A stretch of DNA of 64,000 nt from Candidatus Planktophila lacus (GCA_943331345.2 CALQLF020000005.1:229-64228); one strand, 5' to 3'. Positions 30,530-47,133 are shown, numbered from the stretch's first letter. The notes: generated by a model from the sequence alone, not told the origin. Translations and numbers: made by a program.

Positions 30530-30586
30530 GATTACCCCTCCAAGGAGAATTCCAATTCGACCCGCAAATTATCCTATTCCATAAAA

Positions 30587-32061: not shown

Positions 32062-33653
32062 GCTTGTAATTCCTTACCGATGACTTTGCGCAGAATCGTG
32101 TCGGCTGGGCAGCTCAGTTTGTCTGCAGTCCAGCAAACAAACTGATCCGGACGGACAAGCACTAGTTGTACGCCGTAGCGTGACAAATGCTGCGATGTCA
32201 ATCCATCTACTACTGCAAAGGGAAGCCTTAAAGCCTCGGCAGCTTGGCGGAAATCCTCGACATCGTGCTGATCTGCCCCAAAACTCAGCAGAGCAAAGCC
32301 GGCGCCCAGCCGCTCATAGACATTGGTTCCATCCACCAAAGATAGTGGCGAAAGATGGTGCCCTGCGCGAGCTGCGTGTTGGTGATCTCCCAAGGCTGTT
32401 GGTTGCGCACCCGAATTTCCACAGACCACCGGTGACCCATCGTAATTCGGTGCAAACGATCCTACTTCTCCTGCGGTGCCCTTGGCGCGCGCGCTCCATG
32501 CGGCCTCGAATGCTTCGCGGTCGCGCTCCGGGTCATGGTTCGCAAGGAACTCGCCATCTACCCGAATGGAAGTCTCGATGAAATCCCTTGCCGTGGATTC
32601 GAACACCGGACGACGCTCGGCGTCATAGCTGTCGAGAAGGCCACCGCCTGCCCAGCCATTCAATTCTGCTGCCAACTTCCAGCCGAGATTACGCGCGTCT
32701 TCGAAACCCGAATTCACGCCATATCCACCATACGGCGGGTGGCTATGTGCGGCATCCCCGGCAATAAACACGTTACCCTTCCGGTAGTGGTCTGCGATGG
32801 CGATTCGCAATTGCCACAACCCACGGTAGTCATACTCGATAGAGAACTTCGTCCCGACCGCCTTGTGAAGATAGGCATCGAAGTCAAAGTTTTCTACCGT
32901 AGTGCCGATTGGGACGGGCGCATGAAAAAACCAGCTATTGCCAAGATTGACGCGCCCGAAAAACAACCAATAGCCGTGAAGCTCCGGGCTCAATACGTTG
33001 TAAAACGATTTGCCGGGATACCGCGCCAGCAACTCATGCAACTCAGTGGAGCGGAATACCAAAAGCGCCATAAGCCGATTGTGGTCGCGGCTGGTCTGAG
33101 TCATACCGGCTCGCTCGCGCACTGTCGAAGTACTACCATCGCAGCCTACTACGAAACGGCCTGACAACCACTTCGTTGCTCGTGTCTCCCTGTTCTCTAC
33201 TTTCACTGAAACACCGGCAACGCCGTCTTGCAGGTCAGTTACCGCGTAGCCATAGAGAAACTCAACGGTCGTCAGCTCGGCGGCGCGCTTGCGTAGTACG
33301 GCCTCAGTGGCGTACTGCGGCAAACGCTCGTTGTCCGTGAAGTAGTACGGTCGAACGATTTCGCGTTGCAACCAATCGTAATGATAATCACCAAGCAAGG
33401 TTCCGTATGAGGTCATACCACCAATTCCGTATTCCTTAGGAATGGTACGTGCGGCGCGCAGTTCTTTTTCGGCACCCCACGCATAAAAATGCTCCATGGT
33501 TCGCTGAGTGAGATTCTGCCCCTTCGGAATCGGTTGGGGCTCGAGATACTTCTCGACCACGACGACTCGGATACCGCGTTGTCCCAGTTCAATCGCCAAA
33601 CCCATGCCAACGGGCCCGCCGCCGACGATGATCACCTGCTGCTCGAAACTCAT
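32058..33653 (-). CDS. FAD-dependent aromatic-ring monooxygenase (PheA/TfdB/MhpA-like)
   Basis: 531 aa with VIIVGGGPVGMGLAIELGQRG (GxGxxG), GDAAHSHPPYGGYGVNSGFEDARNLGWKL, and a thioredoxin-like C-terminal extension. Confidence 0.85.
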   Translation of the reverse strand: MSFEQQVIIVGGGPVGMGLAIELGQRGIRVVVVEKYLEPQPIPKGQNLTQRTMEHFYAWGAEKELRAARTIPKEYGIGGMTSYGTLLGDYHYDWLQREIVRPYYFTDNERLPQYATEAVLRKRAAELTTVEFLYGYAVTDLQDGVAGVSVKVENRETRATKWLSGRFVVGCDGSTSTVRERAGMTQTSRDHNRLMALLVFRSTELHELLARYPGKSFYNVLSPELHGYWLFFGRVNLGNSWFFHAPVPIGTTVENFDFDAYLHKAVGTKFSIEYDYRGLWQLRIAIADHYRKGNVFIAGDAAHSHPPYGGYGVNSGFEDARNLGWKLAAELNGWAGGGLLDSYDAERRPVFESTARDFIETSIRVDGEFLANHDPERDREAFEAAWSARAKGTAGEVGSFAPNYDGSPVVCGNSGAQPTALGDHQHAARAGHHLSPLSLVDGTNVYERLGAGFALLSFGADQHDVEDFRQAAEALRLPFAVVDGLTSQHLSRYGVQLVLVRPDQFVCWTADKLSCPADTILRKVIGKELQA

Positions 33654-35452
33654 TTTTCCTGCCTCATTGGGGACCGTGGCTTGGTAGAGCGACCCCCGCT
33701 ATTGACTGTCGTTACACCGCCGGGAGGGCGCCATTCGAAATGGGTACGGACGTTGCTCCAGTCCGACGGAAAGTACGGAATCGGGACTACGCCCTGCCGA
33801 GCGGCCCACTCGTTCCAGCGCGAAACCATCGCCGCGAGGATTGCCGGCTTCTGCGCCGCTAGGTCGTGCTGTTCGGCCGGGTCTTTGGCGATATCGAATA
33901 GGGCCCATTGTTCGTTCGGTCCCCAGGGTGGGTTTTGCCACACGATCTTCCAATTACCCATTCGCCCCGCCCTGCGCGCCCAGAGCTCCCATCCGAAGAA
34001 CTCTTCCACCGGGTGCAGTTCTCCGACTGATTGGGCTTCGAAGGCAGGTCGAAGGCTTCTGCCTTCCAAAGGCTCGATGGGTCTACCCTCAAATTGACTT
34101 TGCGGAACGTCGAGTCCAGCGTAATCCAGCAACGTCGGCACTATGTCGAGAACATGGGTAAATGCGCCATTCAGCGAGCCACTACGTCGGATACCAGGGC
34201 CGCTGGCGATGAACGGTACGCGCGTCCCACCTTCCGTAGCGAAGCCCTTATCAAGACGGAACGGCGTATTGCTCACATGAGCCCATTGGGGTCCGTACCA
34301 CACGTGCGAGCCCGGCTTACCCATCTTTTCAAAGCTCAGTTCACGTTCACGCTCGGCCCATCGGTACCAATCACGCCCCCCGAAATCCAGTGGATTCCCT
34401 CCGTCCGCCCCGTTGTCAGACATGAACACGACAATCGTATTGCGAAGTTGACCGCTCGCCCGCAACGCTGCAATGACGCGGCCTACCTCCCGGTCGAGCG
34501 AGCCGATCATCGCGGCGTAGATTTCCATCCGCCGCTCTTCGAGTTGTCTGATGTCCGCGGGTAATGCAGACCAAGCTGGCCAATCGGAGTCAAACGGCGC
34601 CGCGGTTGTCGCATCTCCAACGACACCTAGGCGACGTTGCTGCGCGAGACGTGCAGCGCGAATTTCTTCATAGCCTTTAGCGTAACGACCACGCTGTCGG
34701 TCAATGTCGTCAGTAGGCGCTTGCAGCGGCCAATGCGGTGCCGTGAACGTGAGCAGGGCAAAAAAAGGCTTTGACCGATCGCCCGCGGCAAGGAACCCAA
34801 TCATCTTGTCCGTGAAAGTTCGGGAACTATAGAAATTCTTCGGTAACTCAACCTCTTGGCCGTTTTCGACATACTTGACGGTCGGTATATCTGGGAACAC
34901 CCCGCGTCGATCAAAATGGGAGGCGGCGCCTTGAATAAGGGCGAAGTGCTGTTGGAATCCTCTGGCAGCGGGGCGATAGGCGACATCACGGGCCCCGCCC
35001 ATATCCCATTTTCCCGACAGCATGGTTTGGTAGCCAGCCCCCGCCAACATCTCGGCGATCGTAGCCACACGATAGGTGAGGACTGCCTCGTAACCGCGTT
35101 TTCCCTCAGTCTCCGGCGTCCAGTCACCTGCCATCGTCCCGAAGCCAGCGTTGTGTGGAGAAGCCCCTGTCAGCAACGCTGCCCTAGTCGGCGAGCAGGC
35201 GGCGTAAGTATGAAAATTGGTCAAACGAATACCCGACCGAGCGAGGCGATCTAGGTTCGGAGTAGCGATTTCTGAGCCGAAGGCGCCAAGATCGGAATAG
35301 CCCATATCGTCGGCGACAATGACCAAAAAATTTGGTCGGCCTGCGGGAGTGGATTGACTAGATGGCGTGGAGGCCCGCGTGTAGTCGATCGACAAAGCAA
35401 ACAGAACGAGCATGCAAGCGATGCTTCGGACCGATGACCGCAAAATGCACAC
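33650..35452 (-). CDS. arylsulfatase (formylglycine-dependent sulfatase family), exported
   Basis: 600 aa with a signal peptide, NFLVIVADDMGYSDLG, and the CSPTRAALLTG formylglycine motif. Confidence 0.9.
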   Translation of the reverse strand: MCILRSSVRSIACMLVLFALSIDYTRASTPSSQSTPAGRPNFLVIVADDMGYSDLGAFGSEIATPNLDRLARSGIRLTNFHTYAACSPTRAALLTGASPHNAGFGTMAGDWTPETEGKRGYEAVLTYRVATIAEMLAGAGYQTMLSGKWDMGGARDVAYRPAARGFQQHFALIQGAASHFDRRGVFPDIPTVKYVENGQEVELPKNFYSSRTFTDKMIGFLAAGDRSKPFFALLTFTAPHWPLQAPTDDIDRQRGRYAKGYEEIRAARLAQQRRLGVVGDATTAAPFDSDWPAWSALPADIRQLEERRMEIYAAMIGSLDREVGRVIAALRASGQLRNTIVVFMSDNGADGGNPLDFGGRDWYRWAERERELSFEKMGKPGSHVWYGPQWAHVSNTPFRLDKGFATEGGTRVPFIASGPGIRRSGSLNGAFTHVLDIVPTLLDYAGLDVPQSQFEGRPIEPLEGRSLRPAFEAQSVGELHPVEEFFGWELWARRAGRMGNWKIVWQNPPWGPNEQWALFDIAKDPAEQHDLAAQKPAILAAMVSRWNEWAARQGVVPIPYFPSDWSNVRTHFEWRPPGGVTTVNSGGRSTKPRSPMRQEK

Positions 35453-35455
35453 TAT

Positions 35456-36271
35456 CTATGCTCCGACCGCAGCCAGCGCTTCATCAACACGAGAATGCCA
35501 CGCAAGCACATCAGTCATTTCCTCGATGTCAGTGAACACGAAGAACTTTTCCTGCTCTATCGCTCCGGCAACCAGCTCTCCCGCTTCGGCCGGATCCATA
35601 GCGCGCCGCATGGCTGCCAGCACACCGGGGCTCGGCTCCCGGGTGGTCGGTCCGCCATGCTTCGCACTACGGTATGTACTGGACCACGGTAGATTTGTAC
35701 GAACGTATCCCGGGCAGAGCACTGTCACGCCCACGCCCGAACCAATCAGATCTTGTCGCATGCCTTCTGAGAGGAAAGTGACTGCCGCCTTGGTAGCTCC
35801 ATACAATCCGTGATGTATTCCGGAAGGAAGAGCCAGGCCGGACATCGATGAAACATTCACAACCCAACCACTGCGCCGCTCTACCATTCCCGGAACAACG
35901 GCTTTGATGCCATTCAAGACACCTTTGAGGTTCACGTCCAGAACCCAGTCAATGTCGTTGTCCGGTGTCTGATGTAGTGGAACACCGGAATATCCAACGC
36001 CGGCGTTGTTAATCAACACCTCAATGAGCCCGAGATCCCGCTCGATATAGCTAACGACACCGCCGAATGCCGGACGATCACTGACATCAAGAGGATAGGT
36101 AAGCACGCGGCCCCGATACCCGGAGAAGTAGGCGCGGGTTTCCTCGAGGGCCTCGGGTCTGACATCGGTTATCGCCACCCTTGCCCCTCTGGAGAGCAGT
36201 ACCCCGGCAATGCCGCGACCAATGCCGCTCGCACCGCCTGTCACCAAGGCGACCCGGTCTGAGAGATTCAT
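35456..36271 (-). CDS. SDR family oxidoreductase
   Basis: 271 aa with VALVTGGASGIGRG, NNAG, and YGATKAAV (YxxxK). Confidence 0.85.
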   Translation of the reverse strand: MNLSDRVALVTGGASGIGRGIAGVLLSRGARVAITDVRPEALEETRAYFSGYRGRVLTYPLDVSDRPAFGGVVSYIERDLGLIEVLINNAGVGYSGVPLHQTPDNDIDWVLDVNLKGVLNGIKAVVPGMVERRSGWVVNVSSMSGLALPSGIHHGLYGATKAAVTFLSEGMRQDLIGSGVGVTVLCPGYVRTNLPWSSTYRSAKHGGPTTREPSPGVLAAMRRAMDPAEAGELVAGAIEQEKFFVFTDIEEMTDVLAWHSRVDEALAAVGA

Positions 36272-36295
36272 GCAACCTCAACCCAGTTCACCGAG

Positions 36296-36736
36296 TTATC
36301 CCCCCATGAGCTCAATGGAGAATCCATGTGAATCTCGCAGGTAAGTGGCGCGACGTCCCGCATGCGGCCCGTGCTGAATGGTAGGCATAGCGGTCTCCGC
36401 CACAAAACCGAAGCGAGCGGCAGCGTCGGCGACGGAAGCGACGTTCTCCACCAAGAAAGATAGATGTGCAAATCCGATGTCGCACGGCCGAGGCGCGTTC
36501 GCGGTACCACTTACCGGTGAGTAATACTGCAGCAACTCGATGACGTGCCCCGGTGCATTCACGTAGACGACATCCGCCGCAGCGGCTTGCACCCCGATGA
36601 TGCGTGATAGCGTTTCGGAAGGTGGAGAGCGGGGCTCAGTCACTTCGAAGCCGAGACATTCGCGGAAGAACGCCGCGAGTCGCCGAACATCCGCGACCGT
36701 AAAGCCGGTATGCAGGGTACTCACCACACTCGTCAT
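36296..36736 (-). CDS. VOC (glyoxalase/extradiol dioxygenase-fold) family protein
   Basis: From the ATG at 36736. LHTGFTVADVRRLAAFFRECLGFEV and FAHLSFLVENV are VOC-like beta-alpha-beta-beta-beta modules. Confidence 0.7.
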   Translation of the reverse strand: MTSVVSTLHTGFTVADVRRLAAFFRECLGFEVTEPRSPPSETLSRIIGVQAAAADVVYVNAPGHVIELLQYYSPVSGTANAPRPCDIGFAHLSFLVENVASVADAAARFGFVAETAMPTIQHGPHAGRRATYLRDSHGFSIELMGG

Positions 36737-36782
36737 GTTCGGTATCCTCTGGCTGCTATCCGTCGCATGCATACGCCACCAA

Positions 36783-37022
36783 TCACGACTGTTCCGCAAC
36801 ACCTACTACTTGGCCTACTGCTGCGTTCTCACCCTCCGGAACCTTGATTTCGATCAGTTTCCCGTCGAATAACGCTTCAACCTCAAAAGTCACCTTGTCC
36901 GTCTCGATGTCGTAGATGGTTTCACCGGTGACAAAGCTTTCTCCGGGCTGCTTGCGCCAGGTCAAAATCATCGCTTCTTCCATGTTCATGCCGACACGGA
37001 CCAGAATGAGGTCGATGTTCAT
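36783..37022 (-). CDS. stand-alone lipoyl-attachment domain protein (79 aa)
   Basis: The ATG at 37022 forms an ATGA overlap with the E1-beta stop. The lipoyl-lysine motif DIETDKVTFEVEA sits inside a single biotin/lipoyl hybrid-barrel-sized protein. Confidence 0.75.
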   Translation of the reverse strand: MNIDLILVRVGMNMEEAMILTWRKQPGESFVTGETIYDIETDKVTFEVEALFDGKLIEIKVPEGENAAVGQVVGVAEQS

Positions 37023-38008
37023 GGGGCCTCCAGTTGGGCGTCGCCAAAGATAGCGGATACCGCCGCGACGACCTTTGCTGCGTCGGGTAGCAATGCCTTC
37101 TCGAGCCCTGGCGCATACGGCAGCGAGGTGTCGGGAACAGTCACACGTCTGACGGGTGACTTTAGGAAATGGAAACCACGATCGGCGACCACTGCAGCGA
37201 TGTGGCTTGCCGCGCTGCACCGGTCGCGACTTTCATCCACCACTACCAGACGGCCTGTCTTGGCAACGGATTCGAGAATGGCATCCTCGTCGAGTGGAAC
37301 GAGCGTTCTAGGATCAACCACCTCCGCCTCGATACCACGCGCCCTCAGCGTCTCGGCGGCGCCAAGGGCATGGCTCACGGTCGCGCCAATAGCCACAATA
37401 GTGACGTCACTGCCAACACGGTGCACCACCGCTTTTCCGAAAGGCACTAAGTGATCACCTTCCGGTACCTCACCCATCGTTGCACCGCGCAAACGCGGAA
37501 TTAGAAAGACTGTAGGGTTTTCCCCGCGCAGAGCAGTTTTAAGCAAGCCTTTGGCATCTGCCGGGGTTGAAGGTACCGCGACTTGAACCCCGCCGAGATT
37601 CATCAAGAGCGGGTACGGCGTATCCGAATGTTGTGCTGCGGTAGAAGTTCCACCGCCGATCGCCGCGACAAACGTCGCCGGTATCCGTGCTTGGCCGCCC
37701 GTCATCAGACGTAGTTTGGCCGCCTGGTTGGCGATAGCGTCGAAACCGGTGTAAAGAAAATTGGAAAACATCATGTGGCAAATAACCGGATTTCCGGCCA
37801 TCGCGGCCCCGACTGCCATACCAGTAAGGGCAGCTTCTGAGATTGGCGTGTTGCGCACACGAGAAGCCCCGAACCGCCCATGAAGCCCTCGAGTGTCGCC
37901 AAAGATGCTTAACTCAACGTCCTCACCATAGAGCACTAGACGCGAATTCCGGTCCATCTCCTCGATATATGCCTCATTGATGGCCTGAGTTAGCCGCTTC
38001 TTAGCCAC
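37019..38008 (-). CDS. 2-oxoacid dehydrogenase E1 component beta subunit (acetoin/pyruvate DH-like)
   Basis: 329 aa with YGEDV, RVRNTPISEAALTGMAVGAAMAG, and a transketolase C-terminal-like region. Confidence 0.9.
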   Translation of the reverse strand: MAKKRLTQAINEAYIEEMDRNSRLVLYGEDVELSIFGDTRGLHGRFGASRVRNTPISEAALTGMAVGAAMAGNPVICHMMFSNFLYTGFDAIANQAAKLRLMTGGQARIPATFVAAIGGGTSTAAQHSDTPYPLLMNLGGVQVAVPSTPADAKGLLKTALRGENPTVFLIPRLRGATMGEVPEGDHLVPFGKAVVHRVGSDVTIVAIGATVSHALGAAETLRARGIEAEVVDPRTLVPLDEDAILESVAKTGRLVVVDESRDRCSAASHIAAVVADRGFHFLKSPVRRVTVPDTSLPYAPGLEKALLPDAAKVVAAVSAIFGDAQLEAP

Positions 38009-39030
38009 TACCGACTCCCTAGCTCTGCGGATCTTATGAAGCCCGCGGCTTCGACATAGCTCATATCAGGTACTTCACTGGCTTCGGCAAACCGTACAGC
38101 TTCGGCGACCTCCAACATGACGGCCGAGTCAATCTGCGCCAGTCCATCTTCTGCGAGATACCCTTGAGCCAACAGACGAGCCGCAACAGCTGGGATGGGG
38201 TCACGTTTTGCCCACGAGGCCACTTCCTCGTCAGTGCGGTACTTGGTTTGAATGAACCCGGCCTCAGCCTCGAGATGCCCGCGGAGGCGGTAGGTCCTCG
38301 CCTCGATGAAAGATGGCCCAAGACCTTGTCTCGCACGACTGACCGCTTCTCCGGCAGCCGCCCAAACGGCAACTACGTCATTACCGTCGATGCTAGTTGT
38401 TGGAATTCCGTAAGGGCGTGGTCGATCGACAAGGCTACCGGCAGTAACCGTGGCGCTTGGAGAGAATTCAGAGTAGAGGTTGTTTTCACACACAAAGACG
38501 AGTGGCAGTTTCCACAACGCGGCGATGTTGAATACTTCGCTTAGTACTCCTTCGCTAGCTGCACCATCGCCGAAGAAAACCACGGCGACTTGTCCGCGTC
38601 CTTGCAGTTGCGCCGACAGTGCAGCGCCAGCGGCTATCGCCATGCCGCCACCGACAATTCCGTTGGCGCCGAGCATTCCTTTAGAGAGATCGGCCACGTG
38701 CATGGATCCGGCAAGCCCATGGCACGCACCGGTGCGCTTTCCATGCACTTCAGCGATTAATTCGCGCGGCTTCCCTCCTTTTGCAAGAAAGTGCCCATGC
38801 CCACGGTGAGTACTCGTAATAAAGTCATCATCGCCCAGATGCGCGCAAACTCCGGCTGCAACTGCTTCCTGGCCGATGTAGAGATGGACGTTACCGGGGA
38901 GCTTGCCGGCTTTCGAGTCCATCCCAAGCTGTTCTTCGGTACGGCGAATAGTGACCATGACATTAAGCATCGCCAGCAACTGTGCGGGGCTTGGCTCATT
39001 GACAAGTCTGTCGGTCAGAACTTCATTCAT
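38008..39030 (-). CDS. 2-oxoacid dehydrogenase E1 component alpha subunit (ThDP-binding)
   Basis: 340 aa with YIGQEAVAAGV, STHRGHGHFLAKG, and GDGAASEG...NN (ThDP motif). Confidence 0.9.
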   Translation of the reverse strand: MNEVLTDRLVNEPSPAQLLAMLNVMVTIRRTEEQLGMDSKAGKLPGNVHLYIGQEAVAAGVCAHLGDDDFITSTHRGHGHFLAKGGKPRELIAEVHGKRTGACHGLAGSMHVADLSKGMLGANGIVGGGMAIAAGAALSAQLQGRGQVAVVFFGDGAASEGVLSEVFNIAALWKLPLVFVCENNLYSEFSPSATVTAGSLVDRPRPYGIPTTSIDGNDVVAVWAAAGEAVSRARQGLGPSFIEARTYRLRGHLEAEAGFIQTKYRTDEEVASWAKRDPIPAVAARLLAQGYLAEDGLAQIDSAVMLEVAEAVRFAEASEVPDMSYVEAAGFIRSAELGSR

Positions 39031-39055
39031 CAGCGTCGGTTCTCGTGAAGTGGGA

Positions 39056-39835
39056 TCATGGATTGCCAGCGACCGCCGCAGGATCCAAGGATCCCGGACT
39101 CGGTTCCAACAAAGATTCAGGATTCGCGAGTTGCTGCATCAGCGCTTGCAGGAACTGGGCGCCGTTCACGCCATCCACCACTCGGTGATCAGCCGACAGG
39201 GTTGCTGTCATCACCGTTGCAATGGAAAGTTCGTTACTGCGTACTACTGGTCGTGGCGCAGCCTGCCCCAACGCGAGTATTCCGGCCTGTGGAGGGTTAA
39301 GGATGGCAACGAATTCACGAACTCCGAACATGCCAAGGTTCGATACAGTGAAAGTGGCTCCGCGGTAATCGTCCGGAATGAGCTTATTGGTGCGCGCGCG
39401 CGCTGCCAGGGTGCGCATCTCTTGCCCCAGTGTTAACAAATCTTTGCGGTCCGCCTCCCGCAGAACCGGGACTACCAAGCCGCCAGGCAACGCAACGGCG
39501 ACGCCGATGTTGGCGTACTCAAACATTCGGAGACGATTACCATCAATCCGGGCGTTGAGCGAAGGCACCTCGCGCAGTGCCCGCGCGGTCGCAGCGACTA
39601 CGCAGTCGTTTACCGAGGGCACTTCTATAGAGTTTTCTCGCTTCAATCGCTCGCGCAACTGCAACACGGGGTCAATATCGATGTCTACGGAGAGGTAGAA
39701 GTGCGGGGCATTCTGCTTCGACTCCTGGAGCCGAGCGCCGATGACGCGCCGCATCGTGCTCAATGGCACCGTCGCAGAGGGTGGGTCTAGCGGGTCCGCC
39801 GGCCCGGCATCGTTGTTGGCAGTGGGCGTGGCCAT
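39056..39835 (-). CDS. 2-oxoacid dehydrogenase E2 acyltransferase, catalytic domain only
   Basis: The start is taken at the ATG at 39835 (MATPTANN). About 230 aa of catalytic domain with the active-site motif SADHRVVDG. There is no lipoyl or subunit-binding domain upstream, because the ORF cannot extend beyond 39874. Confidence 0.8.
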   Translation of the reverse strand: MATPTANNDAGPADPLDPPSATVPLSTMRRVIGARLQESKQNAPHFYLSVDIDIDPVLQLRERLKRENSIEVPSVNDCVVAATARALREVPSLNARIDGNRLRMFEYANIGVAVALPGGLVVPVLREADRKDLLTLGQEMRTLAARARTNKLIPDDYRGATFTVSNLGMFGVREFVAILNPPQAGILALGQAAPRPVVRSNELSIATVMTATLSADHRVVDGVNGAQFLQALMQQLANPESLLEPSPGSLDPAAVAGNP

Positions 39836-39863
39836 CGACGTACTCTCGCGGCGACAATAAAAA

Positions 39864-39874
39864 TTGTAGTACAA
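39864..39874. promoter_or_regulatory. GntR/FadR-type box TTGTAGTACAA
   Basis: Perfect t-n-GT-N3-AC-n-a palindrome, 29-39 nt upstream of the E2 gene start. Confidence 0.45.
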
Positions 39875-39948
39875 AAAAAGCGCGAATTTTAGAATTCTCG
39901 CATTTCCAATGCATCGAAAGCCCTATAGGGCGGACGATATACGTCTAA

Positions 39949-39959
39949 GTGTACAACAA
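39949..39959. promoter_or_regulatory. GntR/FadR-type box GTGTACAACAA
   Basis: Second copy in the same A/T-rich intergenic region. Confidence 0.4.
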
Positions 39960-40034
39960 AAATTTAAAAACGCTACGGCTCTCGCTGCGAATGACTTTGC
40001 CCGAGTCCATGGCCAAACGACTCGCGGGCGCTGC

Positions 40035-41132
40035 TCAAGGCATGACAAGTACAGCCTTCAGCGCAGTTCCTGAGCGGATGTCCGCAATGGCCTGATTGAT
40101 TGCTGCAAATGGGTAGCTGGTCACCAGGTTTTCTATTGGAAAGCGGCCTGCGGCATGGCTCTCCAACAAGCGGGGCAAGAACTCCCGGGGACGAGCAGAA
40201 CCCTGAATGATGCAGGTGAGCGTACCTGCGCGTTCAAACAGAGGCTGCAGGGATAGTCGGTAGTCCTGACCCCAGTCAGGGATGGTGACAAGGCCCAAAC
40301 GCCCCCCAGTAGCCAACATATCCATCGCCTGTCGAATAGCGACATCTCGACCCGAGGTGTCGAATGCGACGTGTACACCTTCCCGAGTGATCGCCCTGAC
40401 GCGAGCCGGTACTTCGCCATCTCGGGGGTCCAGCACATGCGTCGCACCGACGGCAAGCGCGGCCTCGAGTCGATTGGACTTCATATCGACCGCAATGACC
40501 ACGGCGGCACCGGCAAGACGCGCGCCCATCACCGCAGCAAGCCCTACCGCGCCCACACCAAAAACGAGCACGCTCTCTCCGGGACGAACGGCTAGCGAAT
40601 TGAGCATGGCCCCGGCACCTGTCTGCATCCCGCACGGAAGCGCGGCAAGCAGGGCCGGCGACAAGCGGGAGTCGACCGGGACTACATCGCGGGCCGGCGC
40701 TATCGCGTGGGTAGCAAAAGACGACTGCTGAAAGAATGCACTACCGATAGGCTGCCCGGCCAGTCGGATAGGACTGGAGCCATCAGGACGGCTCCCGGCA
40801 AACGCGAGCGCCATATGTTCGGTACAGTGATAAGGACGGTTATCTACGCAACTATTGCACTGGCCACACCACGGGTACGAAACCAGCACCCGCTGTCCGG
40901 GGCGAATGTCATCGACCTCGGCCCCCACTGCCTCAACAATTCCCACGCCTTCGTGGCCAAGAACACAGGGCGCGTCCAGCATCTCCATGGCTTCGAGGTC
41001 GGTAAAACATACGCCACATGCCTCTATCCGAACACGCACCTCGTCAGCACGCGGGTCATCTATCTCGACGGGCAAGAGCTCATAAGGTCCATGCTGTGTT
41101 TGCAAAACAGCGGCAGTCGCAACGATCGGCAT
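40035..41132 (-). CDS. zinc-dependent alcohol dehydrogenase (aryl-alcohol dehydrogenase-like)
   Basis: 365 aa with CGVCFTDL, GHEGVGIVEAVG, the structural-zinc Cys cluster CGQCNSCVDNRPYHC, and GVGAVGLAA. Confidence 0.85.
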   Translation of the reverse strand: MPIVATAAVLQTQHGPYELLPVEIDDPRADEVRVRIEACGVCFTDLEAMEMLDAPCVLGHEGVGIVEAVGAEVDDIRPGQRVLVSYPWCGQCNSCVDNRPYHCTEHMALAFAGSRPDGSSPIRLAGQPIGSAFFQQSSFATHAIAPARDVVPVDSRLSPALLAALPCGMQTGAGAMLNSLAVRPGESVLVFGVGAVGLAAVMGARLAGAAVVIAVDMKSNRLEAALAVGATHVLDPRDGEVPARVRAITREGVHVAFDTSGRDVAIRQAMDMLATGGRLGLVTIPDWGQDYRLSLQPLFERAGTLTCIIQGSARPREFLPRLLESHAAGRFPIENLVTSYPFAAINQAIADIRSGTALKAVLVMP

Positions 41133-41210
41133 GAATACTCCTTCATCGGTGGCGCTCGCTAACGCTTGCGCTATCGTGGCTCGACGCCGCCACGCCGGAA
41201 GGACATGGCC

Positions 41211-41861
41211 TCACTCCGCGGCGCCTAGCCAAAGTTCACGAAATTCCCTTCTCACTGATTCGGTGTGCAGACGCATCTGGAGTTCAGCAAACGCCTTATC
41301 ACCCTTGGCCAAGGCTTCAACGATAGCGTGATGCTGTCGCAACGAAGACTGGCTTTCCGTCGATTGCCCGAGTTTCAAATAGAGACTCTGGGTGAAATCG
41401 ACAATGCGGAATATAATCTCGGTTAGCGTGCTGTTGCCGGAACAGCGGTGCAGCGCGCGATGAAACCGTGAGTTCAATTCAAGGAAGGCGCGATCGTCCG
41501 CAGGACGCGCAGCTACCAGGGCCTCTTGCTCGGCGACAATTGCGCGTAACTCCGCGATCGCTTCCGATGTGACGCGTTCTGCCGCCAAACCAACGCTGTA
41601 ACTTTCTAGGAAACTCAGGAGGTCGAAGATTTCCTCGGCATGCGTTTCACTGACATCAGACACATAACTGCGTTTATTGCCGGCAATGGTGACTAGCCCT
41701 TCGCTCGCGAGCGCGCGAATTGCCTGACGCACTGGTGTACGGCTGGCATTGCAGTATCCAGCAAGCTCTTCCTCTTTGAGATGAAACCCGGGCTTGAACG
41801 TACCCCTGAAGATGGCTTTGCGTATTTTGTCGTAAGCACGTTGCTTTGAAGTAGTCACCAT
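41211..41861 (-). CDS. GntR family transcriptional regulator, FadR/FCD subfamily
   Basis: It has a winged HTH (LKEEELAGYCNASRTPVRQAIRALASEGLV) plus an all-helical FCD-like C-terminus. The start is taken at MVTTSKQRAYD. An upstream GTG at 41939 that overlaps the ALDH stop (GTGA) is an alternative. Confidence 0.8.
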   Translation of the reverse strand: MVTTSKQRAYDKIRKAIFRGTFKPGFHLKEEELAGYCNASRTPVRQAIRALASEGLVTIAGNKRSYVSDVSETHAEEIFDLLSFLESYSVGLAAERVTSEAIAELRAIVAEQEALVAARPADDRAFLELNSRFHRALHRCSGNSTLTEIIFRIVDFTQSLYLKLGQSTESQSSLRQHHAIVEALAKGDKAFAELQMRLHTESVRREFRELWLGAAE

Positions 41862-41935
41862 CAGCTCCTGCCACGACCAAAGTAAACGGTCGATAGGGCA
41901 TGATAGCGAAAACGTGAGCGGGCTTGGAATGATGC

Positions 41936-43444
41936 TCACAAGCCGGCCACCACGCTCTTCAGTTCGGTGTATTCCTCGACACCGACCCGCCCAGACTCGC
42001 GCCCCCAGCCTGACTGGCCGAATCCACCATTTGGCAATGACTCATCCAGCATGGCGTAGCAGTTGATCCAAACGGAACCCGCACGAATCTCGGCGGCCAT
42101 GGCATGCGCGGTAGAAAGATCACGGGTGAAAACGCCGGCCGCCAAGCCGTAGGGCGTGTCATTCGCGAGAGCGACCGCCTCTTCCAGCGTGTCGAAAGGC
42201 ATCACGCCAAGCACAGGCCCGAAGATTTCCTCCCTCATAAGCTCAATGTCGTTGCCGGGGACGGCAAACACCGTGGGCTCGACAAAGTAACCACGGTCGC
42301 CTACGGTCCGCCCGCCAGTCACCAATGTAGCTCCCTCAAGCTGAGCCCGGCTGATGAAGCCGAGTACTGCGGCCTGCTGTCGAGCCGACACCAACGGGCC
42401 CAGTTCGCTCGCGGGGTCTAGTCCTGGCCCCACCCGCATACGTCGCGCAATTGCCGAGACTCCAGCAACCACAGCGTCGTAGATAGGTCGCTCGACGTAG
42501 AGCCGGCTACCTGCGAAACAGATTTGCCCGGAATTCATGAAGATTGCTTCGGCGACCGCGGGTATGGTGCGCTCAAGGTCCGCATCCGCAAAAACCAGCA
42601 TCGGCGACTTACCCCCAAGTTCCAGTGCAACTCGTTTGAGGTTGCCGGTAGCGAGTTGGGTGATGGCCCGTCCGGTTGCCGTGGATCCAGTGAAAGAGAC
42701 CTTGTCGACGCCAGCATGCGCCGCGAGGTGTCTCCCGGTGACGCCACCGGGGCCCGGCACGATATTCACGACTCCCGGTGGGAAATCTGCCTCCAGAAGT
42801 AACTCGCCGAGGCGAAGGGCGGTCAGCGGTGTCAACTCGGCCGGCTTCAACACCACACAGTTTCCCATCGCCAAGGCCGGCGCCAGCTTCGCGGTTGCCA
42901 TGATGACTGGTACGTTCCATGGGGTAATGGCGGCCACGACCCCAAGGGGCTCGCGCAAGGTGTAAGCATGATAGGCGGGACCGGTCGGGTTTCCGGCGCG
43001 CTGGTCAGGCGCGGAGAGCACGGCAGTAGCCCCCTCCATTTTGGTGCACCAACCGGCGTAATAACGCACTGCGTCTGCTGGCCCATGACCGGCAAGGAAA
43101 TGGGCCAGCCCAATTGGCATGCCCTGGTTGAGCGTCTCGAGATGGGCGAGCTCAGCGGCGTGAGCCTCGATTAAATCGGCGAATCTCCACAACCGCTTGG
43201 CCCGGTCTGCGGGCGGCATGCGTCGCCATGCACGCCCCGCAAAGGCGTTTCGGGCTGCCGCCACGGCCAGGTCAACATCGTGAACATCAGCTGACATAAC
43301 GGTGGCAATAGCACGCTCGGTGGCCGGGTCGTGGACCTCGAACGCCGGACCACGGCCCTCGACCCATCGCCCATCAATCAAGAGCGGCTTGGGCCGCGCC
43401 AAATACTCCGTCACACGAGCTTCCGTCGTCACTTGCAACTCCAC
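41936..43444 (-). CDS. NAD(P)-dependent aldehyde dehydrogenase
   Basis: 502 aa with a GTG start, LELGGKSP, and FMNSGQICFAGSRL (catalytic Cys). Confidence 0.9.
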   Translation of the reverse strand: MELQVTTEARVTEYLARPKPLLIDGRWVEGRGPAFEVHDPATERAIATVMSADVHDVDLAVAAARNAFAGRAWRRMPPADRAKRLWRFADLIEAHAAELAHLETLNQGMPIGLAHFLAGHGPADAVRYYAGWCTKMEGATAVLSAPDQRAGNPTGPAYHAYTLREPLGVVAAITPWNVPVIMATAKLAPALAMGNCVVLKPAELTPLTALRLGELLLEADFPPGVVNIVPGPGGVTGRHLAAHAGVDKVSFTGSTATGRAITQLATGNLKRVALELGGKSPMLVFADADLERTIPAVAEAIFMNSGQICFAGSRLYVERPIYDAVVAGVSAIARRMRVGPGLDPASELGPLVSARQQAAVLGFISRAQLEGATLVTGGRTVGDRGYFVEPTVFAVPGNDIELMREEIFGPVLGVMPFDTLEEAVALANDTPYGLAAGVFTRDLSTAHAMAAEIRAGSVWINCYAMLDESLPNGGFGQSGWGRESGRVGVEEYTELKSVVAGL

Positions 43445-43470
43445 GGGCGATCGACCCGAAACACGTAAGA

Positions 43471-43481
43471 CTGTGCAACAT
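43471..43481. promoter_or_regulatory. GntR/FadR-type box CTGTGCAACAT
   Basis: Lies 27-37 nt upstream of the ALDH-GntR-ADH operon start, in the divergent region shared with the plus-strand ALDH-MFS operon. Confidence 0.4.
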
Positions 43482-43672
43482 TTTTAGATGATTAGCAAGG
43501 AAGCCCATTGACCGATAAAACGTCAGGAACTGTATTTATAACGAATTCTCTAGTTGTAAACTTTTTCTTCCTGAGAGCGGCACTTTGAATATGGTGTTTT
43601 GATGTACACTTTTTAACAAAGCACTCACTTAGAACCGTCGTCTAACTCACTTTCCACCTGCGCGGATCCTGT

Positions 43673-45115
43673 ATGTCAGACCCTGTCTACCATTTCATCG
43701 CAGGCGAGTACACCGCCTCCAGCGATGGAGCCATTGCCGCGAGCCTTGACCCGGCCACGGGTGCCGTCATCGGACATTTTGCCGCCGGCGGTGAGATGGA
43801 GGCCGCCGCGGCCATTGCTGCCGCCCGACACACATTTGATACCTCTGTGTGGTCGCGATCCCCCCTGCTCCGTGCGAAAGTGCTGCTCGAACTGGCAGAC
43901 CGTCTGGAGGCCGAAAAGACCAGCATCGCGAACTTGCTCACGGCCGAGAACGGTAAAATTCTGCGTCAATCGCAGGGGGAACTCGGAATAGCCATCTCGG
44001 AGCTCCGCTACTATGCAGGCCTAGCACGTACGCTTTACGGGCGGGTCATCGAACTCGAGCCACAGCTTTACTCGATGCTCGGGCGCGAAGCGATGGGTGT
44101 TGCCGGCATCATCGTTCCGTGGAATGCACCCATCATCCTGCTCATTCGCTCGCTCGCGCCCGCACTAGCTGCTGGCTGCACATGTGTCATCAAGGCCGCG
44201 CCCCAGACTGCCCTCACTAATGACGCCGTAGTGCGGCTCATGGCTAATCTAAAGTCACTACCTCCGGGCGTTGTTAATAGCTTCACGGAAACCGGCAGTG
44301 CGGGTGCCGCAGAAATCGTCGCGTCTCTCGATGTCGATGTCTTGAGTTATACGGGCAGCACTGGCGTCGGCAAGAAAATCATGGCGGCGGCGGCGGGTAC
44401 CCTGAAACGGCTTAACCTAGAGCTAGGCGGAAGTGCCCCTTGCCTTGTATTCGATGATGCGGACCTCGACAGAGCCATTCCCGAGTTGGTAGCCGCAGGA
44501 ATGGTTATGGCCGGCCAGCAGTGTGTTGCCGCCAGCCGACTGTTAGTTCATTCCTCTATCGCGGAAAAAGCAGAACGACTATTCGCCGCAGCGCTTGAAC
44601 GTGTACGCGTCGGGCCCGGCCGCGATCCCACGAGCGAGATGGGGCCGTTGATTGATGTCGCAAATCGTGACCGAATACTGAAACTACTGGATACGGCCAA
44701 GGCATCTACCGATGCCATCGTCCTCGGCAGCGCGCTGCAAGGGAAAAACGCTCATGGCGCCTTTGTCACGCCGAGTCTCCTGCGGGTTCGGGACCGGGCA
44801 GCGGCAGTCCTTCAAGAAGAAGTGTTCGGGCCAGTCATGACACTCGACGTCTTTGACGACGAGGAAGAGGCCGTCCATGTCGCCAATTCAAGCCGCTTCG
44901 GCCTAGCGGCAAGCGTCTGGTCGAGCGACCTGCGGCGTGCACAGCGCGTCGCCGCCCAACTCCGCAGCGGCACTGTCTGGCTCAACCGCCATGGCCATCT
45001 GGCGCCAGAAGCGGAGACGGGTGGGTACCGGGAGAGTGGCATCGGCCGATTGCATGGCGTCGAGGGACTAGGCGAATTCATGCAAACCAAACATATTCAA
45101 TGGGCCACGAGTTGA
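43673..45115 (+). CDS. NAD(P)-dependent aldehyde dehydrogenase
   Basis: 480 aa with LELGGSAP, MAGQQCVAASRL (catalytic Cys) and EEVFGPV. Confidence 0.9.
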   Translation: MSDPVYHFIAGEYTASSDGAIAASLDPATGAVIGHFAAGGEMEAAAAIAAARHTFDTSVWSRSPLLRAKVLLELADRLEAEKTSIANLLTAENGKILRQSQGELGIAISELRYYAGLARTLYGRVIELEPQLYSMLGREAMGVAGIIVPWNAPIILLIRSLAPALAAGCTCVIKAAPQTALTNDAVVRLMANLKSLPPGVVNSFTETGSAGAAEIVASLDVDVLSYTGSTGVGKKIMAAAAGTLKRLNLELGGSAPCLVFDDADLDRAIPELVAAGMVMAGQQCVAASRLLVHSSIAEKAERLFAAALERVRVGPGRDPTSEMGPLIDVANRDRILKLLDTAKASTDAIVLGSALQGKNAHGAFVTPSLLRVRDRAAAVLQEEVFGPVMTLDVFDDEEEAVHVANSSRFGLAASVWSSDLRRAQRVAAQLRSGTVWLNRHGHLAPEAETGGYRESGIGRLHGVEGLGEFMQTKHIQWATS

Positions 45116-45126
45116 GTTGCTGACTT

Positions 45127-47129: not shown

Positions 47130-47133
47130 TTTC

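What the first reader, a model, noticed from the sequence alone, without database searches (positions are those of the whole stretch)
36783..39835. 2-oxoacid dehydrogenase with a split E2: a catalytic-domain-only acyltransferase and a separate 79-aa lipoyl carrier, with no E3
The operon order on the minus strand is E2 catalytic domain (39835-39056, DHRVVDG active site), E1 alpha, E1 beta, then a 79-aa ORF that is a single lipoyl domain (DIETDKV lipoyl-lysine motif). The 79-aa ORF starts in an ATGA overlap with the E1 beta stop. The E2 ORF cannot extend upstream to include a lipoyl or peripheral subunit-binding domain. In canonical PDH, OGDH, BCKDH and acetoin dehydrogenase complexes these domains are fused N-terminally to the catalytic core. 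A free carrier would work more like the glycine-cleavage H protein. No dihydrolipoamide dehydrogenase is encoded nearby. A VOC protein, an SDR, the sulfatase and the FAD monooxygenase follow in the same direction with tiny gaps or overlaps.
Basis: partly seen in the sequence, partly recalled or inferred. Interest (0 to 1): 0.65.

Follow-up and report, generated by a model that had tools for sequence, protein, structure and literature searches.

The report
Dehydrogenase operon with free lipoyl carrier
A rare but conserved bacterial operon encodes a pyruvate-dehydrogenase-like enzyme whose swinging-arm lipoyl domain is a free 79-residue protein, not part of the E2 core, which departs from the textbook design of these complexes.

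Summary
On the minus strand lie:
- a 259-aa E2 with only the catalytic domain (no lipoyl domain, no E3-binding domain)
- E1 alpha
- E1 beta
- a 79-aa single lipoyl domain that starts in an ATGA overlap with the E1 beta stop
- an MCE-like VOC protein, an SDR, a sulfatase and an FAD monooxygenase.

No E3 or lipoate ligase was found in the 64 kb.

It is not an assembly error. The identical proteins occur on 46-77 independently assembled contigs. About 30 diverged E2cat clusters and about 52 stand-alone lipoyl clusters keep the same architecture. Seven distinct contexts share the order E2cat-E1a-E1b-Lip-VOC.

Sister cassettes with equally similar E1 and Lip genes have no E2cat within 8-10 kb. More distant relatives have a normal fused E2 plus E3. 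The constant core is therefore E1ab + Lip + VOC.

Most likely mechanism, inferred and not shown:
1. E1 reductively acylates Lys43 of the free carrier.
2. E2cat passes the acyl group to CoA.
3. A housekeeping E3 encoded elsewhere re-oxidises the carrier.

The substrate is unknown. The cassette sits in a lower-GC catabolic island with genes for sulfated aromatic or amino compounds. I call it a new variant of a known kind, of moderate to high interest.

The parts
39056..39835 (-). E2cat: catalytic-domain-only dihydrolipoamide acyltransferase (259 aa). It has no lipoyl domain and no peripheral-subunit-binding domain, and carries a 16-aa tail beyond the canonical C-terminus.
   Evidence: Pfam finds 2-oxoacid_dh only. 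It aligns with residues 421-645 of the 647-aa mammalian E2p. An alignment with full-length E2p shows the protein starts in the inner linker. DHR..DG and the SNLG serine are invariant in 21 homologues.
38008..39030 (-). E1 alpha subunit (340 aa), ThDP-binding
   Evidence: E1_dh 6.7e-72. TIGR03182 scores 302 bits, below its cut-off of 394. The best PDB match is human PDHA1. A GDG-X26-NN motif is read from the translation.
37019..38008 (-). E1 beta subunit (329 aa)
   Evidence: Transket_pyr plus Transketolase_C. It aligns over its full length with G. stearothermophilus PDH E1 beta at 234 bits.
36783..37022 (-). Lip: stand-alone 79-aa lipoyl carrier protein. The predicted lipoyl-lysine is K43. Its ATG overlaps the E1 beta stop codon (ATGA).
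   Evidence: Biotin_lipoyl 6.4e-13. K43 aligns to the ETDK lysine of human E2p. E40, T41 and K43 are invariant in 24 homologues. The AF2 model has pLDDT 91, with K43 in the turn between strands 35-41 and 44-49. Foldseek gives TM 0.92-0.95 to E2/E3BP lipoyl domains. All 57 database homologues are 78-123 aa and contain only this domain.
36296..36736 (-). VOC protein (146 aa), methylmalonyl-CoA-epimerase-like. It always accompanies E1ab and Lip, directly downstream of Lip (of E1 beta where Lip is relocated).
   Evidence: Glyoxalase and Glyoxalase_4 hits. H9, E67, H91 and E142 are invariant. A profile search of PDB matches glyoxalase I and MCE. The AF2 model has pLDDT 90 and its top Foldseek hits are MCEs at TM about 0.63. 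It adjoins Lip in the cassettes of types a and b, and follows E1 beta in type c.
35456..36271 (-). SDR oxidoreductase (271 aa), same transcription direction
   Evidence: adh_short 1.7e-46. An SDR recurs next to the cassette in L002, L003, L086, L091 and L102.
33650..35452 (-). Sulfatase (600 aa) with a hydrophobic N-terminus
   Evidence: Sulfatase 1.2e-57. Sulfatase genes recur near the cassette in L003, L088, L091 and L172.
32058..33653 (-). FAD-dependent aromatic-ring hydroxylase (531 aa). Its start overlaps the sulfatase stop by 4 nt.
   Evidence: FAD_binding_3 2.6e-63 plus Rng_hyd_C.
39836..40034 (-). 199-nt AT-rich spacer upstream of E2cat. It is too short to hold a lipoyl or E3-binding domain and has in-frame stops. 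It probably contains the promoter.
   Evidence: Sequence and translation. The consensus promoter scan found nothing there.
40035..43444 (-). Upstream co-directional genes: ALDH (43444..41936), a GntR/FCD regulator (41939..41211) and a Zn-ADH (41132..40035)
   Evidence: Pfam. The same ALDH-GntR-ZnADH trio precedes the cassette region in L091, where a sulfatase gene separates it from E2cat. ALDH-GntR precedes E1a in L167 and L168.
26200..52230 (.). Lower-GC catabolic island that contains the cassette. It also holds an arylsulfotransferase, two TonB-dependent receptors, two MFS transporters, a second ALDH, a second SDR and a class-III aminotransferase.
   Evidence: GC is 0.53-0.62 inside and 0.62-0.68 outside, with a sharp step at about 52.2 kb.

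Best explanation
This is a real, conserved and rare variant of the heterotetrameric-E1 (PDH / BCKDH / acetoin-type) lipoamide-dependent dehydrogenase. The multidomain E2 has been taken apart. The lipoyl domain survives as a free 79-aa carrier protein, co-translated with E1 beta. A PDH-E2p-like catalytic domain is encoded on its own at the head of the operon. The E3-binding domain and the E3 gene are gone.

Proposed cycle (inferred):
1. E1ab (ThDP) decarboxylates a 2-oxoacid, or cleaves an acetoin-like alpha-hydroxyketone. It then reductively acylates lipoyl-Lys43 of the free carrier.
2. The acyl-dihydrolipoyl carrier diffuses to E2cat, which passes the acyl group to CoA.
3. The MCE-like VOC enzyme epimerises or isomerises the resulting thioester.
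4. The dihydrolipoyl carrier is re-oxidised by a housekeeping dihydrolipoamide dehydrogenase encoded elsewhere.

Without an E3-binding domain nothing tethers E1 or E3 to a core. The system would then work as a diffusing-carrier system, like the glycine-cleavage H protein. It would not be an assembled swinging-arm complex.

The cassette serves a horizontally acquired island for breakdown of a sulfated aromatic or amino compound. The exact substrate is unknown.
For: **Domains (shown).**

**Catalytic equipment intact (shown).**
- E1a has the GDG-X26-NN motif.
- E1b aligns end to end with a solved PDH E1b.
- The E2cat residues DHR..DG and S165 are invariant.
- Lip K43 is invariant, sits at the hairpin tip, and the model matches lipoyl domains at TM 0.92-0.95.

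**Not an artefact (shown).** The exact proteins are on 46-77 contigs, and 24 of 24 contigs read have the same neighbours.

**Conserved architecture (shown).**
- About 30 catalytic-only proteins of 230-265 aa outrank all full-length E2p.
- Seven distinct contexts share E2cat-E1a-E1b-Lip-VOC: the window, L001, L002, L003, L091, L171 and L173.
- All 57 Lip homologues are single-domain proteins.
- Lip abuts or overlaps E1b and VOC in most loci.

**Ancestry (shown).** Distant relatives have the canonical form with a fused E2 of 407-417 aa and an E3, again with VOC, and in L118 and L126 also SDR and Zn-ADH (L118, L126, L128).

**No E3 near any split cassette (shown).**

**VOC is MCE-like (shown).**

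**A lipoyl group supplied in trans to an E2 domain has a published precedent.** This is actinobacterial OdhA (PMC10415282).

**From established knowledge, not tested here.**
- Isolated lipoyl domains are good substrates of their cognate E1.
- E3 is promiscuous towards dihydrolipoyl proteins.
Against: - Nothing here shows expression, lipoylation or activity.
- Cassettes with equally similar E1 and Lip genes lack E2cat within 8-10 kb (E1b 64-72% identical in both sets). These are L086, L098, L099, L100, L102, L167 and L168. E2cat is therefore either supplied from elsewhere or not needed.
- An NJ tree does not resolve the short E2cat proteins as one clade (6 of 20 bootstraps).
- The presence of an E3 elsewhere in the genome could not be checked.
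- The substrate is unknown. E1a and E1b score below the PDH equivalog cut-offs.
- The VOC role is a guess from the fold.
Confidence: 0.62

Rival explanations
1. The functional unit is E1ab + Lip + VOC, and E2cat is an optional add-on. The acyl (or 2-hydroxyacyl) group loaded on the free lipoyl carrier would be processed while still bound to the carrier. The MCE/glyoxalase-like VOC enzyme could do this. The group would then be released by hydrolysis or by a host E2. Lip would then act as a true 'lipoyl carrier protein', analogous to ACP, not as one half of a split E2.
For: - VOC accompanies E1ab and Lip in every cassette found. It follows Lip directly, often with overlapping stop and start codons, except in L167 and L168, where it follows E1 beta.
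- E2cat is absent from L086, L098, L099, L100, L102, L167 and L168, although E1 and Lip identity there is comparable.
- The nearest relatives of the VOC act on thiol-linked substrates: glyoxalase I and methylmalonyl-CoA epimerase.
Against: - Every member of the E2cat clade whose context was read sits in the cassette. Its start is often coupled to E1a.
- Its catalytic residues are invariant.
- No VOC enzyme is known to act on a lipoyl-bound thioester.
- Distant canonical clusters with a fused E2 and an E3 also carry a VOC. This ties the VOC to the pathway and not to the free carrier.
- Flanks of 8-10 kb cannot exclude an E2cat elsewhere in those genomes.
Confidence: 0.2
2. Lip is not the acyl acceptor of this E1. 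It would be a lipoate relay or storage protein, like GcvH in the Bacillus lipoyl-relay, or a regulator. E1ab and E2cat would then use the lipoyl domains of the host's housekeeping E2, as actinobacterial OdhA does.
For: - OdhA shows that an E2 domain can borrow lipoyl groups from another complex (PMC10415282).
- In L167 and L168 the Lip gene is detached from E1ab and lies between a TonB-receptor gene and an arylsulfotransferase gene.
Against: - Lip is an E2-type lipoyl domain, not a GcvH.
- It is translationally coupled to E1 beta in most loci.
- It carries a clade-specific RVGMNMEEAT loop next to the lipoyl-lysine. By prior knowledge this is the region that E1 recognises.
- No lipoate ligase or amidotransferase gene accompanies it.
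Confidence: 0.08
3. The arrangement is a decaying remnant of a canonical operon, that is, pseudogenisation after loss of E2 and E3. Alternatively it is a sequencing or assembly artefact.
For: - Canonical fused relatives exist (L118, L126, L128).
- One class of 'stand-alone' lipoyl hits (L090 type) does look like a frameshift inside a repeated linker.
Against: - The identical sequence is found on dozens of independent contigs.
- E2cat and Lip are 2 kb apart on opposite sides of E1ab, so no frameshift can join them.
- About 30 and about 52 diverged clusters keep intact ORFs of constant length with invariant catalytic residues.
- Gene packing is tight, with overlapping stop and start codons.
Confidence: 0.03

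Closest known systems
Canonical PDH / BCKDH / acetoin dehydrogenase complexes with E1 alpha2beta2 (for example G. stearothermophilus or human PDH, and AcoABCL)
   Same: - E1a and E1b are full-length and PDH-like.
- The E2 catalytic domain is 50-57% identical to alphaproteobacterial-type E2p.
- The lipoyl domain has the normal fold and lysine.
- SDR, Zn-ADH and ALDH neighbours recall aco/butanediol clusters.
   Different: - The lipoyl domain is a separate protein.
- There is no E3-binding domain.
- There is no E3 gene.
- E2cat precedes E1a in the operon and does not follow E1b.
- An MCE-like VOC gene is an integral member.
- E1a and E1b score below the PDH equivalog cut-offs.
Actinobacterial OdhA/KGD (an E2o catalytic domain fused to E1o that uses the lipoyl domains of PDH E2p in trans)
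   Same: An E2 catalytic domain without its own lipoyl domain or E3-binding domain depends on a lipoyl group delivered in trans (PMC10415282).
   Different: - Here E2cat is free and not fused to E1.
- E1 is the alpha/beta type.
- The lipoyl group comes from a dedicated single-domain protein in the same operon, not from another complex's E2.
Glycine cleavage system H protein
   Same: A small free lipoyl protein would shuttle between separate enzymes, and a shared E3 (L protein) would re-oxidise it. This is a functional analogy.
   Different: - It belongs to a different sequence family. Lip hits Biotin_lipoyl and the E2 N-termini, not GCV_H.
- Its structure matches E2/E3BP lipoyl domains at TM 0.92-0.95.
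- The partner is a ThDP E1, not a PLP-dependent P protein.
Lipoyl domains displaced onto other subunits: E1 beta with an N-terminal lipoyl domain (NCBIfam NF008854 / PRK11892 type) and E3 with an N-terminal lipoyl domain (Neisseria P64K, PDB 1gjx)
   Same: These show that the lipoyl domain is evolutionarily mobile within these systems. Lip matches positions 1-75 of NF008854 and 1gjx.
   Different: In those cases the extra domain is still fused to a subunit, and a normal multidomain E2 is also present. Here the domain is free, and it is the only lipoyl domain in the operon.
Methylmalonyl-CoA epimerase / small glyoxalase I (for the VOC gene)
   Same: - The fold has an intramolecular paired-module active site.
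- It has His/Glu/His/Glu metal ligands.
   Different: - Identity is only 15-25%.
- A single-sequence search of PDB gives no hit.
- It has an invariant RPCD motif.
- It is fixed next to a lipoyl carrier gene.

Membership tests
2-oxoacid (lipoamide) dehydrogenase multienzyme complex, E1 alpha2beta2 type | ThDP-dependent E1 alpha with a GDG-X(24-27)-NN motif and a full-length E1 beta | tested here: met
   E1_dh 6.7e-72, plus Transket_pyr and Transketolase_C. GDG-X26-NN is read. Both align over their full length with solved PDH E1a and E1b.
2-oxoacid (lipoamide) dehydrogenase multienzyme complex, E1 alpha2beta2 type | E2 acyltransferase catalytic domain with the DHRxxDG histidine and the conserved serine | tested here: met
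   2-oxoacid_dh 3.9e-79. H217, D221 and S165 are invariant in 21 homologues. It aligns with mammalian E2p.
2-oxoacid (lipoamide) dehydrogenase multienzyme complex, E1 alpha2beta2 type | Lipoyl domain with the lipoyl-lysine at the tip of a beta-hairpin | tested here: met
   Actual lipoylation cannot be tested here.
2-oxoacid (lipoamide) dehydrogenase multienzyme complex, E1 alpha2beta2 type | Lipoyl domain(s) covalently linked by flexible linkers to the E2 core | tested here: not met
   E2cat starts about 20 residues before the catalytic domain. Lip is a separate ORF 2 kb away, on the far side of E1ab. The same holds in all homologues.
2-oxoacid (lipoamide) dehydrogenase multienzyme complex, E1 alpha2beta2 type | Peripheral-subunit (E1/E3) binding domain in E2 | tested here: not met
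   No E3_binding (PF02817) hit in E2cat or Lip. The full-length relatives all carry PF02817.
2-oxoacid (lipoamide) dehydrogenase multienzyme complex, E1 alpha2beta2 type | Dihydrolipoamide dehydrogenase (E3), dedicated or shared | tested here: inconclusive
   None in the 64-kb window and none next to related split cassettes. The rest of the genome could not be examined, and sharing one E3 is common.
Acetoin dehydrogenase enzyme system (AcoABCL) | E1ab that cleaves acetoin, an AcoC E2 and an AcoL E3, usually with butanediol/acetoin reductase genes | tested here: inconclusive
   - The best NCBIfam hit of Lip is the N-terminus of acetoin-DH E2 (NF011457), at 65.6 bits against a whole-protein cut-off of 307.
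- SDR, Zn-ADH and ALDH neighbours are present.
- No acetoin-specific E1 model matched.
- There is no AcoC-type or AcoL gene.
Glycine cleavage H protein | GCV_H fold and sequence family with P, T and L protein partners | tested here: not met
   Lip hits Biotin_lipoyl and the E2 N-termini only. The best structures are E2/E3BP lipoyl domains. The partner genes are E1ab. A GCV_T gene was seen only in L003.
Actinobacterial OdhA/KGD-type two-in-one enzyme | E2 catalytic domain fused N-terminally to an E1o polypeptide | tested here: not met
   E2cat is a free 259-aa protein. E1 is split into alpha and beta subunits.
Methylmalonyl-CoA epimerase (VOC gene) | MCE fold with metal ligands and epimerase activity on (2R/2S)-methylmalonyl-CoA | tested here: inconclusive
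   Fold and ligands are compatible, but identity is only 15-25% and no equivalog model matched. Activity cannot be tested here.

The most novel reading that the evidence does not exclude
The 79-aa protein would be the founding member of a 'lipoyl carrier protein' system. A ThDP E1ab loads an acyl or hydroxyacyl group onto a freely diffusing lipoyl protein. The always-adjacent MCE/glyoxalase-like VOC enzyme then works on the carrier-bound thioester. In many lineages no E2 is involved at all. This would be a new mode of lipoate biochemistry, beyond the five classical lipoyl enzymes and the sHdr-LbpA system (PMC6067878). E2cat would be a later add-on that links the carrier to CoA.
Probability: 0.17. 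Interest if true: 0.8.

Novelty: new variant of a known kind. Interest (0 to 1): 0.6.

Why it matters
2-oxoacid dehydrogenase complexes are the textbook example of substrate channelling. In them, a lipoyl arm swings while tethered to a large E2 core that also docks E1 and E3. The actinobacterial exceptions (a reduced E2p core, and OdhA borrowing lipoyl groups) were considered important enough for recent structural papers (PMC10415282).

A natural system with the following features would be a minimal, fully disassembled version of the machine:
- The lipoyl domain is a free protein.
- The catalytic core has no docking domain.
- No E3 is encoded alongside.

Such a system would allow three things:
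- Test directly how much tethering contributes to catalysis.
- Provide a small natural lipoyl carrier and cognate E1/E2cat pair for engineering.
- Add a new lipoylated protein family to a very short list.

It also marks an uncharacterised catabolic island in uncultured Gram-negative bacteria, linked to sulfated aromatic or amino compounds.

Tried and rejected
- **Genome-contig scan with the E2cat alignment.** No short-clade member was returned.
- **Protein search with E1 beta.** It timed out twice.
- **NJ trees of the catalytic domain.** The short proteins sit together but monophyly is not supported (6 of 20 bootstraps). I therefore do not claim a single origin.
- **Exhaustive profile search with the Lip alignment.** The ranking is dominated by multi-lipoyl E2s. 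Only four proteins of about 80 aa appear in the best 150. It gave no usable count of the family.
- **Promoter and terminator scan.** It found fewer sites than in shuffled sequence and was uninformative.
- **Rfam and tRNA scans.** They found nothing, so there are no landmarks for the island borders.
- **Single-sequence PDB search with the VOC.** It gave no hit. A profile and a fold search were needed.
- **Literature searches.** Searches for a natural stand-alone E2-type lipoyl protein or an E2 lacking its lipoyl domain found only OdhA, GcvH and LbpA. The library lacks most subscription journals, so absence is weak evidence.
- **Biotin carrier, rejected.** Lip has ETDK, not MKM, its partners are E1ab, and the best structural matches are lipoyl domains.
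- **Cryptic N-terminal domain in E2cat, rejected.** Only 19 residues precede the catalytic domain.
- **L090-type 96-115-aa lipoyl hits as a second kind of split E2, rejected.** They end in a frameshift inside a repeated linker.

Full report
**1. The observation**

The ORF map and the sequence show eight co-directional minus-strand genes. Their gaps run from -4 to 46 nt.

| Gene | Coordinates | Length |
|---|---|---|
| E2cat | 39835..39056 | 259 aa |
| E1 alpha | 39030..38008 | 340 aa |
| E1 beta | 38008..37019 | 329 aa |
| Lip | 37022..36783 | 79 aa |
| VOC | 36736..36296 | 146 aa |
| SDR | 36271..35456 | 271 aa |
| Sulfatase | 35452..33650 | 600 aa |
| FAD monooxygenase | 33653..32058 | 531 aa |

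- The Lip ATG and the E1 beta TGA form an ATGA overlap, and a GGAGG lies 4 nt upstream.
- Pfam finds only 2-oxoacid_dh in E2cat, covering residues 20-243 and profile positions 4-231 of 232. It finds only Biotin_lipoyl in Lip. Neither has an E3_binding hit.
- The E2cat frame can extend only 13 codons upstream. The 199-nt spacer to the preceding Zn-ADH gene is AT-rich and has stops in that frame.
- A six-frame motif search finds no E3 redox-disulfide motif in the 64 kb.
- Pfam scans of the other large ORFs find neither an E3 nor a lipoate ligase.

**2. Not an artefact**

- The exact E2cat, E1a, E1b, Lip and VOC protein sequences are on record from NCBI, ENA, JGI and Logan assemblies, on 46-77 contigs. 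The longest is 277,830 bp.
- E2cat is indexed in 89 blocks of the collection. All 24 contigs read had the same gene calls (259, 340, 329, 79 and 146 aa) and the same neighbours.
- E2cat and Lip lie on opposite sides of E1ab, so no frameshift could fuse them.

**3. Conservation of the architecture**

- A search with E2cat returns about 30 clusters of catalytic-only proteins, 230-265 aa long and 54-99% identical. They rank above all full-length E2p, which are 57% identical or less and carry Biotin_lipoyl + E3_binding + 2-oxoacid_dh.
- The short proteins start about 20 residues before the conserved PLSTMRR. This is inside what is the inner linker of full-length E2p. Most have a short tail beyond the canonical C-terminus.
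- The catalytic residues (DHR..DG and the SNLG serine) are invariant.
- A search with Lip returns 57 clusters, all of 78-123 aa and all with Biotin_lipoyl only. None is fused to anything.
- E40, T41 and K43 are invariant. There is also a clade-specific RVGMNMEEAT loop.
- K43 aligns with the lipoyl-lysine of human E2p.
- The AlphaFold model has pLDDT 91.4 and places K43 in the turn between strands 35-41 and 44-49.
- Its best PDB matches are E2/E3BP lipoyl domains, at TM 0.92-0.95 and rmsd about 1 Å.

**4. Comparative gene order**

Four cassette types emerge.

- **(a) E2cat-E1a-E1b-Lip-VOC.** It occurs in seven distinct contexts: the window, L001 (a MAG labelled Dehalococcoidia), L002, L003-5, L091, L171 and L173.
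- **(b) E1a-E1b-Lip-VOC with no E2cat in the flank read.** These are L086/87, L098, L099, L100 and L102, and L103 and L105 are partial. The flank reaches 9 kb in L086 but is short in L099-L105. The upstream genes are a split transketolase (L086) or a transporter and an SDR (L102).
- **(c) E1a-E1b-VOC with Lip moved.** Lip lies 6.5 kb away, between a TonB-receptor gene and an arylsulfotransferase gene. No E2cat lies within 10 kb. These are L088/L167 and L168, which is Alphaproteobacteria bacterium PA1 (GCA_002256225.1).
- **(d) Distant canonical relatives.** L118 and L126 have E1b-E2(407 aa)-E1a-VOC-SDR-ZnADH-E3, although in L126 the E3 lies about 5 kb further on. L128 has VOC-E1a-E1b-E2(417 aa)-E3.

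Four points follow.

- E1b identity to the window is 64-72% in types a, b and c alike. E2cat presence therefore does not track divergence.
- No E3 lies near any cassette of types a to c.
- In canonical operons the E2 gene follows E1b. Lip thus occupies the place of the 5' end of E2, while E2cat has been placed upstream of E1a.
- The Lip start abuts or overlaps the E1b stop. The Lip stop often abuts or overlaps the VOC start.

**5. The partner genes**

- **E1a.** Its closest solved relative is human PDHA1, at 182 bits.
- **E1b.** Its closest solved relative is G. stearothermophilus PDH E1b, at 234 bits over the full length.
- **Equivalog status.** Both score below the NCBIfam PDH equivalog cut-offs: 302 against 394, and 278 against 321. 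They are PDH-like paralogues, not the housekeeping PDH.
- **Lip.** Its best NCBIfam hit is the N-terminus of the acetoin-dehydrogenase E2 model.
- **VOC metal ligands.** H9, E67, H91 and E142 are invariant, as is an RPCD motif.
- **VOC relatives.** A profile search of PDB matches small glyoxalase I and methylmalonyl-CoA epimerases. A confident model (pLDDT 90.3) has MCEs as its top structural matches at TM about 0.63. Domain-swapped glyoxalase I matches poorly. Both enzyme types act on thiol-linked substrates.

**6. Genomic setting**

The cassette lies in a block of about 26 kb (26.2-52.2 kb). GC there is 0.53-0.62, against 0.62-0.68 outside, with a sharp step at 52.2 kb.

The block also encodes:
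- an arylsulfotransferase
- two TonB-dependent receptors
- two MFS transporters
- two ALDHs
- a second SDR
- a Zn-ADH
- a GntR/FCD regulator
- a class-III aminotransferase.

Related cassettes are surrounded by the same kinds of genes. They also carry FGE-sulfatase, a Rieske VanA-like oxygenase, GCV_T, gentisate-pathway genes, acyl-CoA ligase and APH-type kinases.

This points to catabolism of a sulfated aromatic or amino compound taken up across an outer membrane. The exact substrate cannot be deduced. The host taxon of the window was not determined. TonB receptors and an RND/OEP efflux operon indicate a Gram-negative bacterium. The island genes are 62-76% identical to those of the L088/L167 contig, which has the same layout as the alphaproteobacterium PA1 locus L168.

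**7. Mechanism**

Shown:
- All catalytic modules of the E1 and E2 half-reactions, and a lipoyl domain, are present, intact and conserved.
- The tethering elements (linker fusion and E3-binding domain) and E3 are absent.

Inferred:
1. E1ab reductively acylates lipoyl-K43 of the free carrier.
2. E2cat transfers the acyl group to CoA.
3. The MCE-like VOC epimerises or isomerises the thioester.
4. A housekeeping E3 re-oxidises the carrier.

The inference rests on established properties of these families (prior knowledge, not tested here):
- Isolated lipoyl domains are efficient and specific substrates of their cognate E1.
- E2 catalytic domains accept lipoyl substrates in trans.
- E3 is promiscuous.

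It also rests on the published precedent of OdhA, which uses lipoyl groups in trans (PMC10415282). Without a docking domain the system should be distributive, like the glycine cleavage system. The tail on E2cat beyond the canonical C-terminus might also prevent assembly of a 24- or 60-mer core. That point is speculation and can be tested by SEC or cryo-EM.

**8. Rivals**

- **Main rival.** The true unit is E1ab + Lip + VOC, with E2cat optional. It rests on cassette types b and c and on the fixed Lip-VOC pairing. Against it, E2cat of this clade was never found outside the cassette, and distant canonical clusters also carry a VOC.
- **Relay or regulatory role for Lip.** This is unlikely, given the coupling to E1b and the E2-type fold.
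- **Decay or artefact.** This is excluded as far as sequence data allow.

**9. Comparison with what is known, and novelty**

The parts belong to the 2-oxoacid/acetoin dehydrogenase family. However, two defining features of the complex were tested and are not met: a lipoyl domain covalently linked to E2, and a peripheral-subunit-binding domain. An E3 was not found.

Known deviations are:
- lipoyl domains fused to E1b (the NF008854 type)
- lipoyl domains fused to E3 (Neisseria P64K, 1gjx)
- the lipoyl-less E2 domain of OdhA
- the free but unrelated GcvH and LbpA proteins (PMC6067878).

Full-text searches found no description of a natural free E2-type lipoyl carrier paired with E1ab and a docking-less E2 core. 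The library is incomplete, so this is weak evidence. I therefore call it a new variant of a known kind.

The family is rare. There are about 30 E2cat, about 52 Lip (after setting aside five hits of the frameshifted L090 type) and 48 VOC clusters among 5.8 billion. Nearly all come from metagenomes.

**10. Verdict**

- Interest is 0.6.
- Confidence in the architecture is about 0.9.
- Confidence in the full mechanism is about 0.6.

Noticed in passing
window 26200-52230: A block of about 26 kb has lower GC (0.53-0.62 against 0.62-0.68 outside), with a sharp step at about 52.2 kb. It holds the whole cassette plus sulfatase, sulfotransferase, TonB-receptor, MFS, ALDH and aminotransferase genes. It is probably a horizontally acquired catabolic island. 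No tRNA, integrase or Rfam landmark was found at its borders.
   Followed up: partly
L090:9001-10399: More distant 'stand-alone' lipoyl hits of 96-115 aa (P0237-P0241) were checked in one locus, L090. There the ORF sits between sucA and a PSBD+catalytic ORF. It ends inside a tandemly repeated Ala/Pro/Glu linker-coding sequence that has one extra base between repeat copies. This looks like a frameshift, possibly a long-read assembly error, in a normal E2o and not a true split.
   Followed up: partly
L167:1306-1545 and L168:1281-1520: In Alphaproteobacteria bacterium PA1 and a related 172-kb contig the Lip gene is detached from E1a-E1b-VOC. It lies between a TonB-dependent receptor gene and an arylsulfotransferase gene, which is an odd place for a cytoplasmic lipoyl protein gene. 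No E2cat lies within 10 kb.
   Followed up: partly
L086:5083-6905: A split transketolase (separate TK_N and TK_C genes) lies directly upstream of E1a-E1b-Lip-VOC-SDR-ADH, on a 3.26-Mb contig that lacks E2cat nearby. Two ThDP enzymes therefore sit next to one lipoyl carrier.
   Followed up: no
L088:11136-14855: Genes that look like a gentisate pathway lie next to the Lip/arylsulfotransferase genes. They are a cupin dioxygenase, a GST-type isomerase, an FAA-family hydrolase and an FAD hydroxylase. This hints that the island's substrate ends up as a hydroxybenzoate.
   Followed up: no
window 15452-16348 (-): A gene of the MbnB/TglH/ChrH (DUF692) RiPP-modification family scores 2.7e-93. The adjacent ORFs were not examined.
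   Followed up: no
window 17583-24098 (-): This is a TetR regulator, outer-membrane factor, HlyD-type adaptor and AcrB-type RND pump operon. It supports a Gram-negative host.
   Followed up: no
window 63482-63928 (-): A 148-aa biotin carboxyl carrier-like protein (AMKM motif, Biotin_lipoyl 2.2e-17) lies at the edge of the window. It is the only other biotin/lipoyl-family domain in the 64 kb.
   Followed up: no
window 40035-41132 (-): The closest NCBIfam models for the Zn-ADH just upstream of E2cat are formaldehyde-type class III, mycothiol-dependent and NDMA-dependent alcohol dehydrogenases (about 210 bits, below the cut-offs). This may hint at a C1 or small aldehyde by-product of the E1 cleavage.
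   Followed up: no
L173:3377-7960 and L001:6953-9160: Some cassettes are preceded by aminotransferase-ALDH-acyl-CoA ligase genes and followed by APH/choline-kinase-like kinases. This gene set resembles amino-alcohol catabolism.
   Followed up: no
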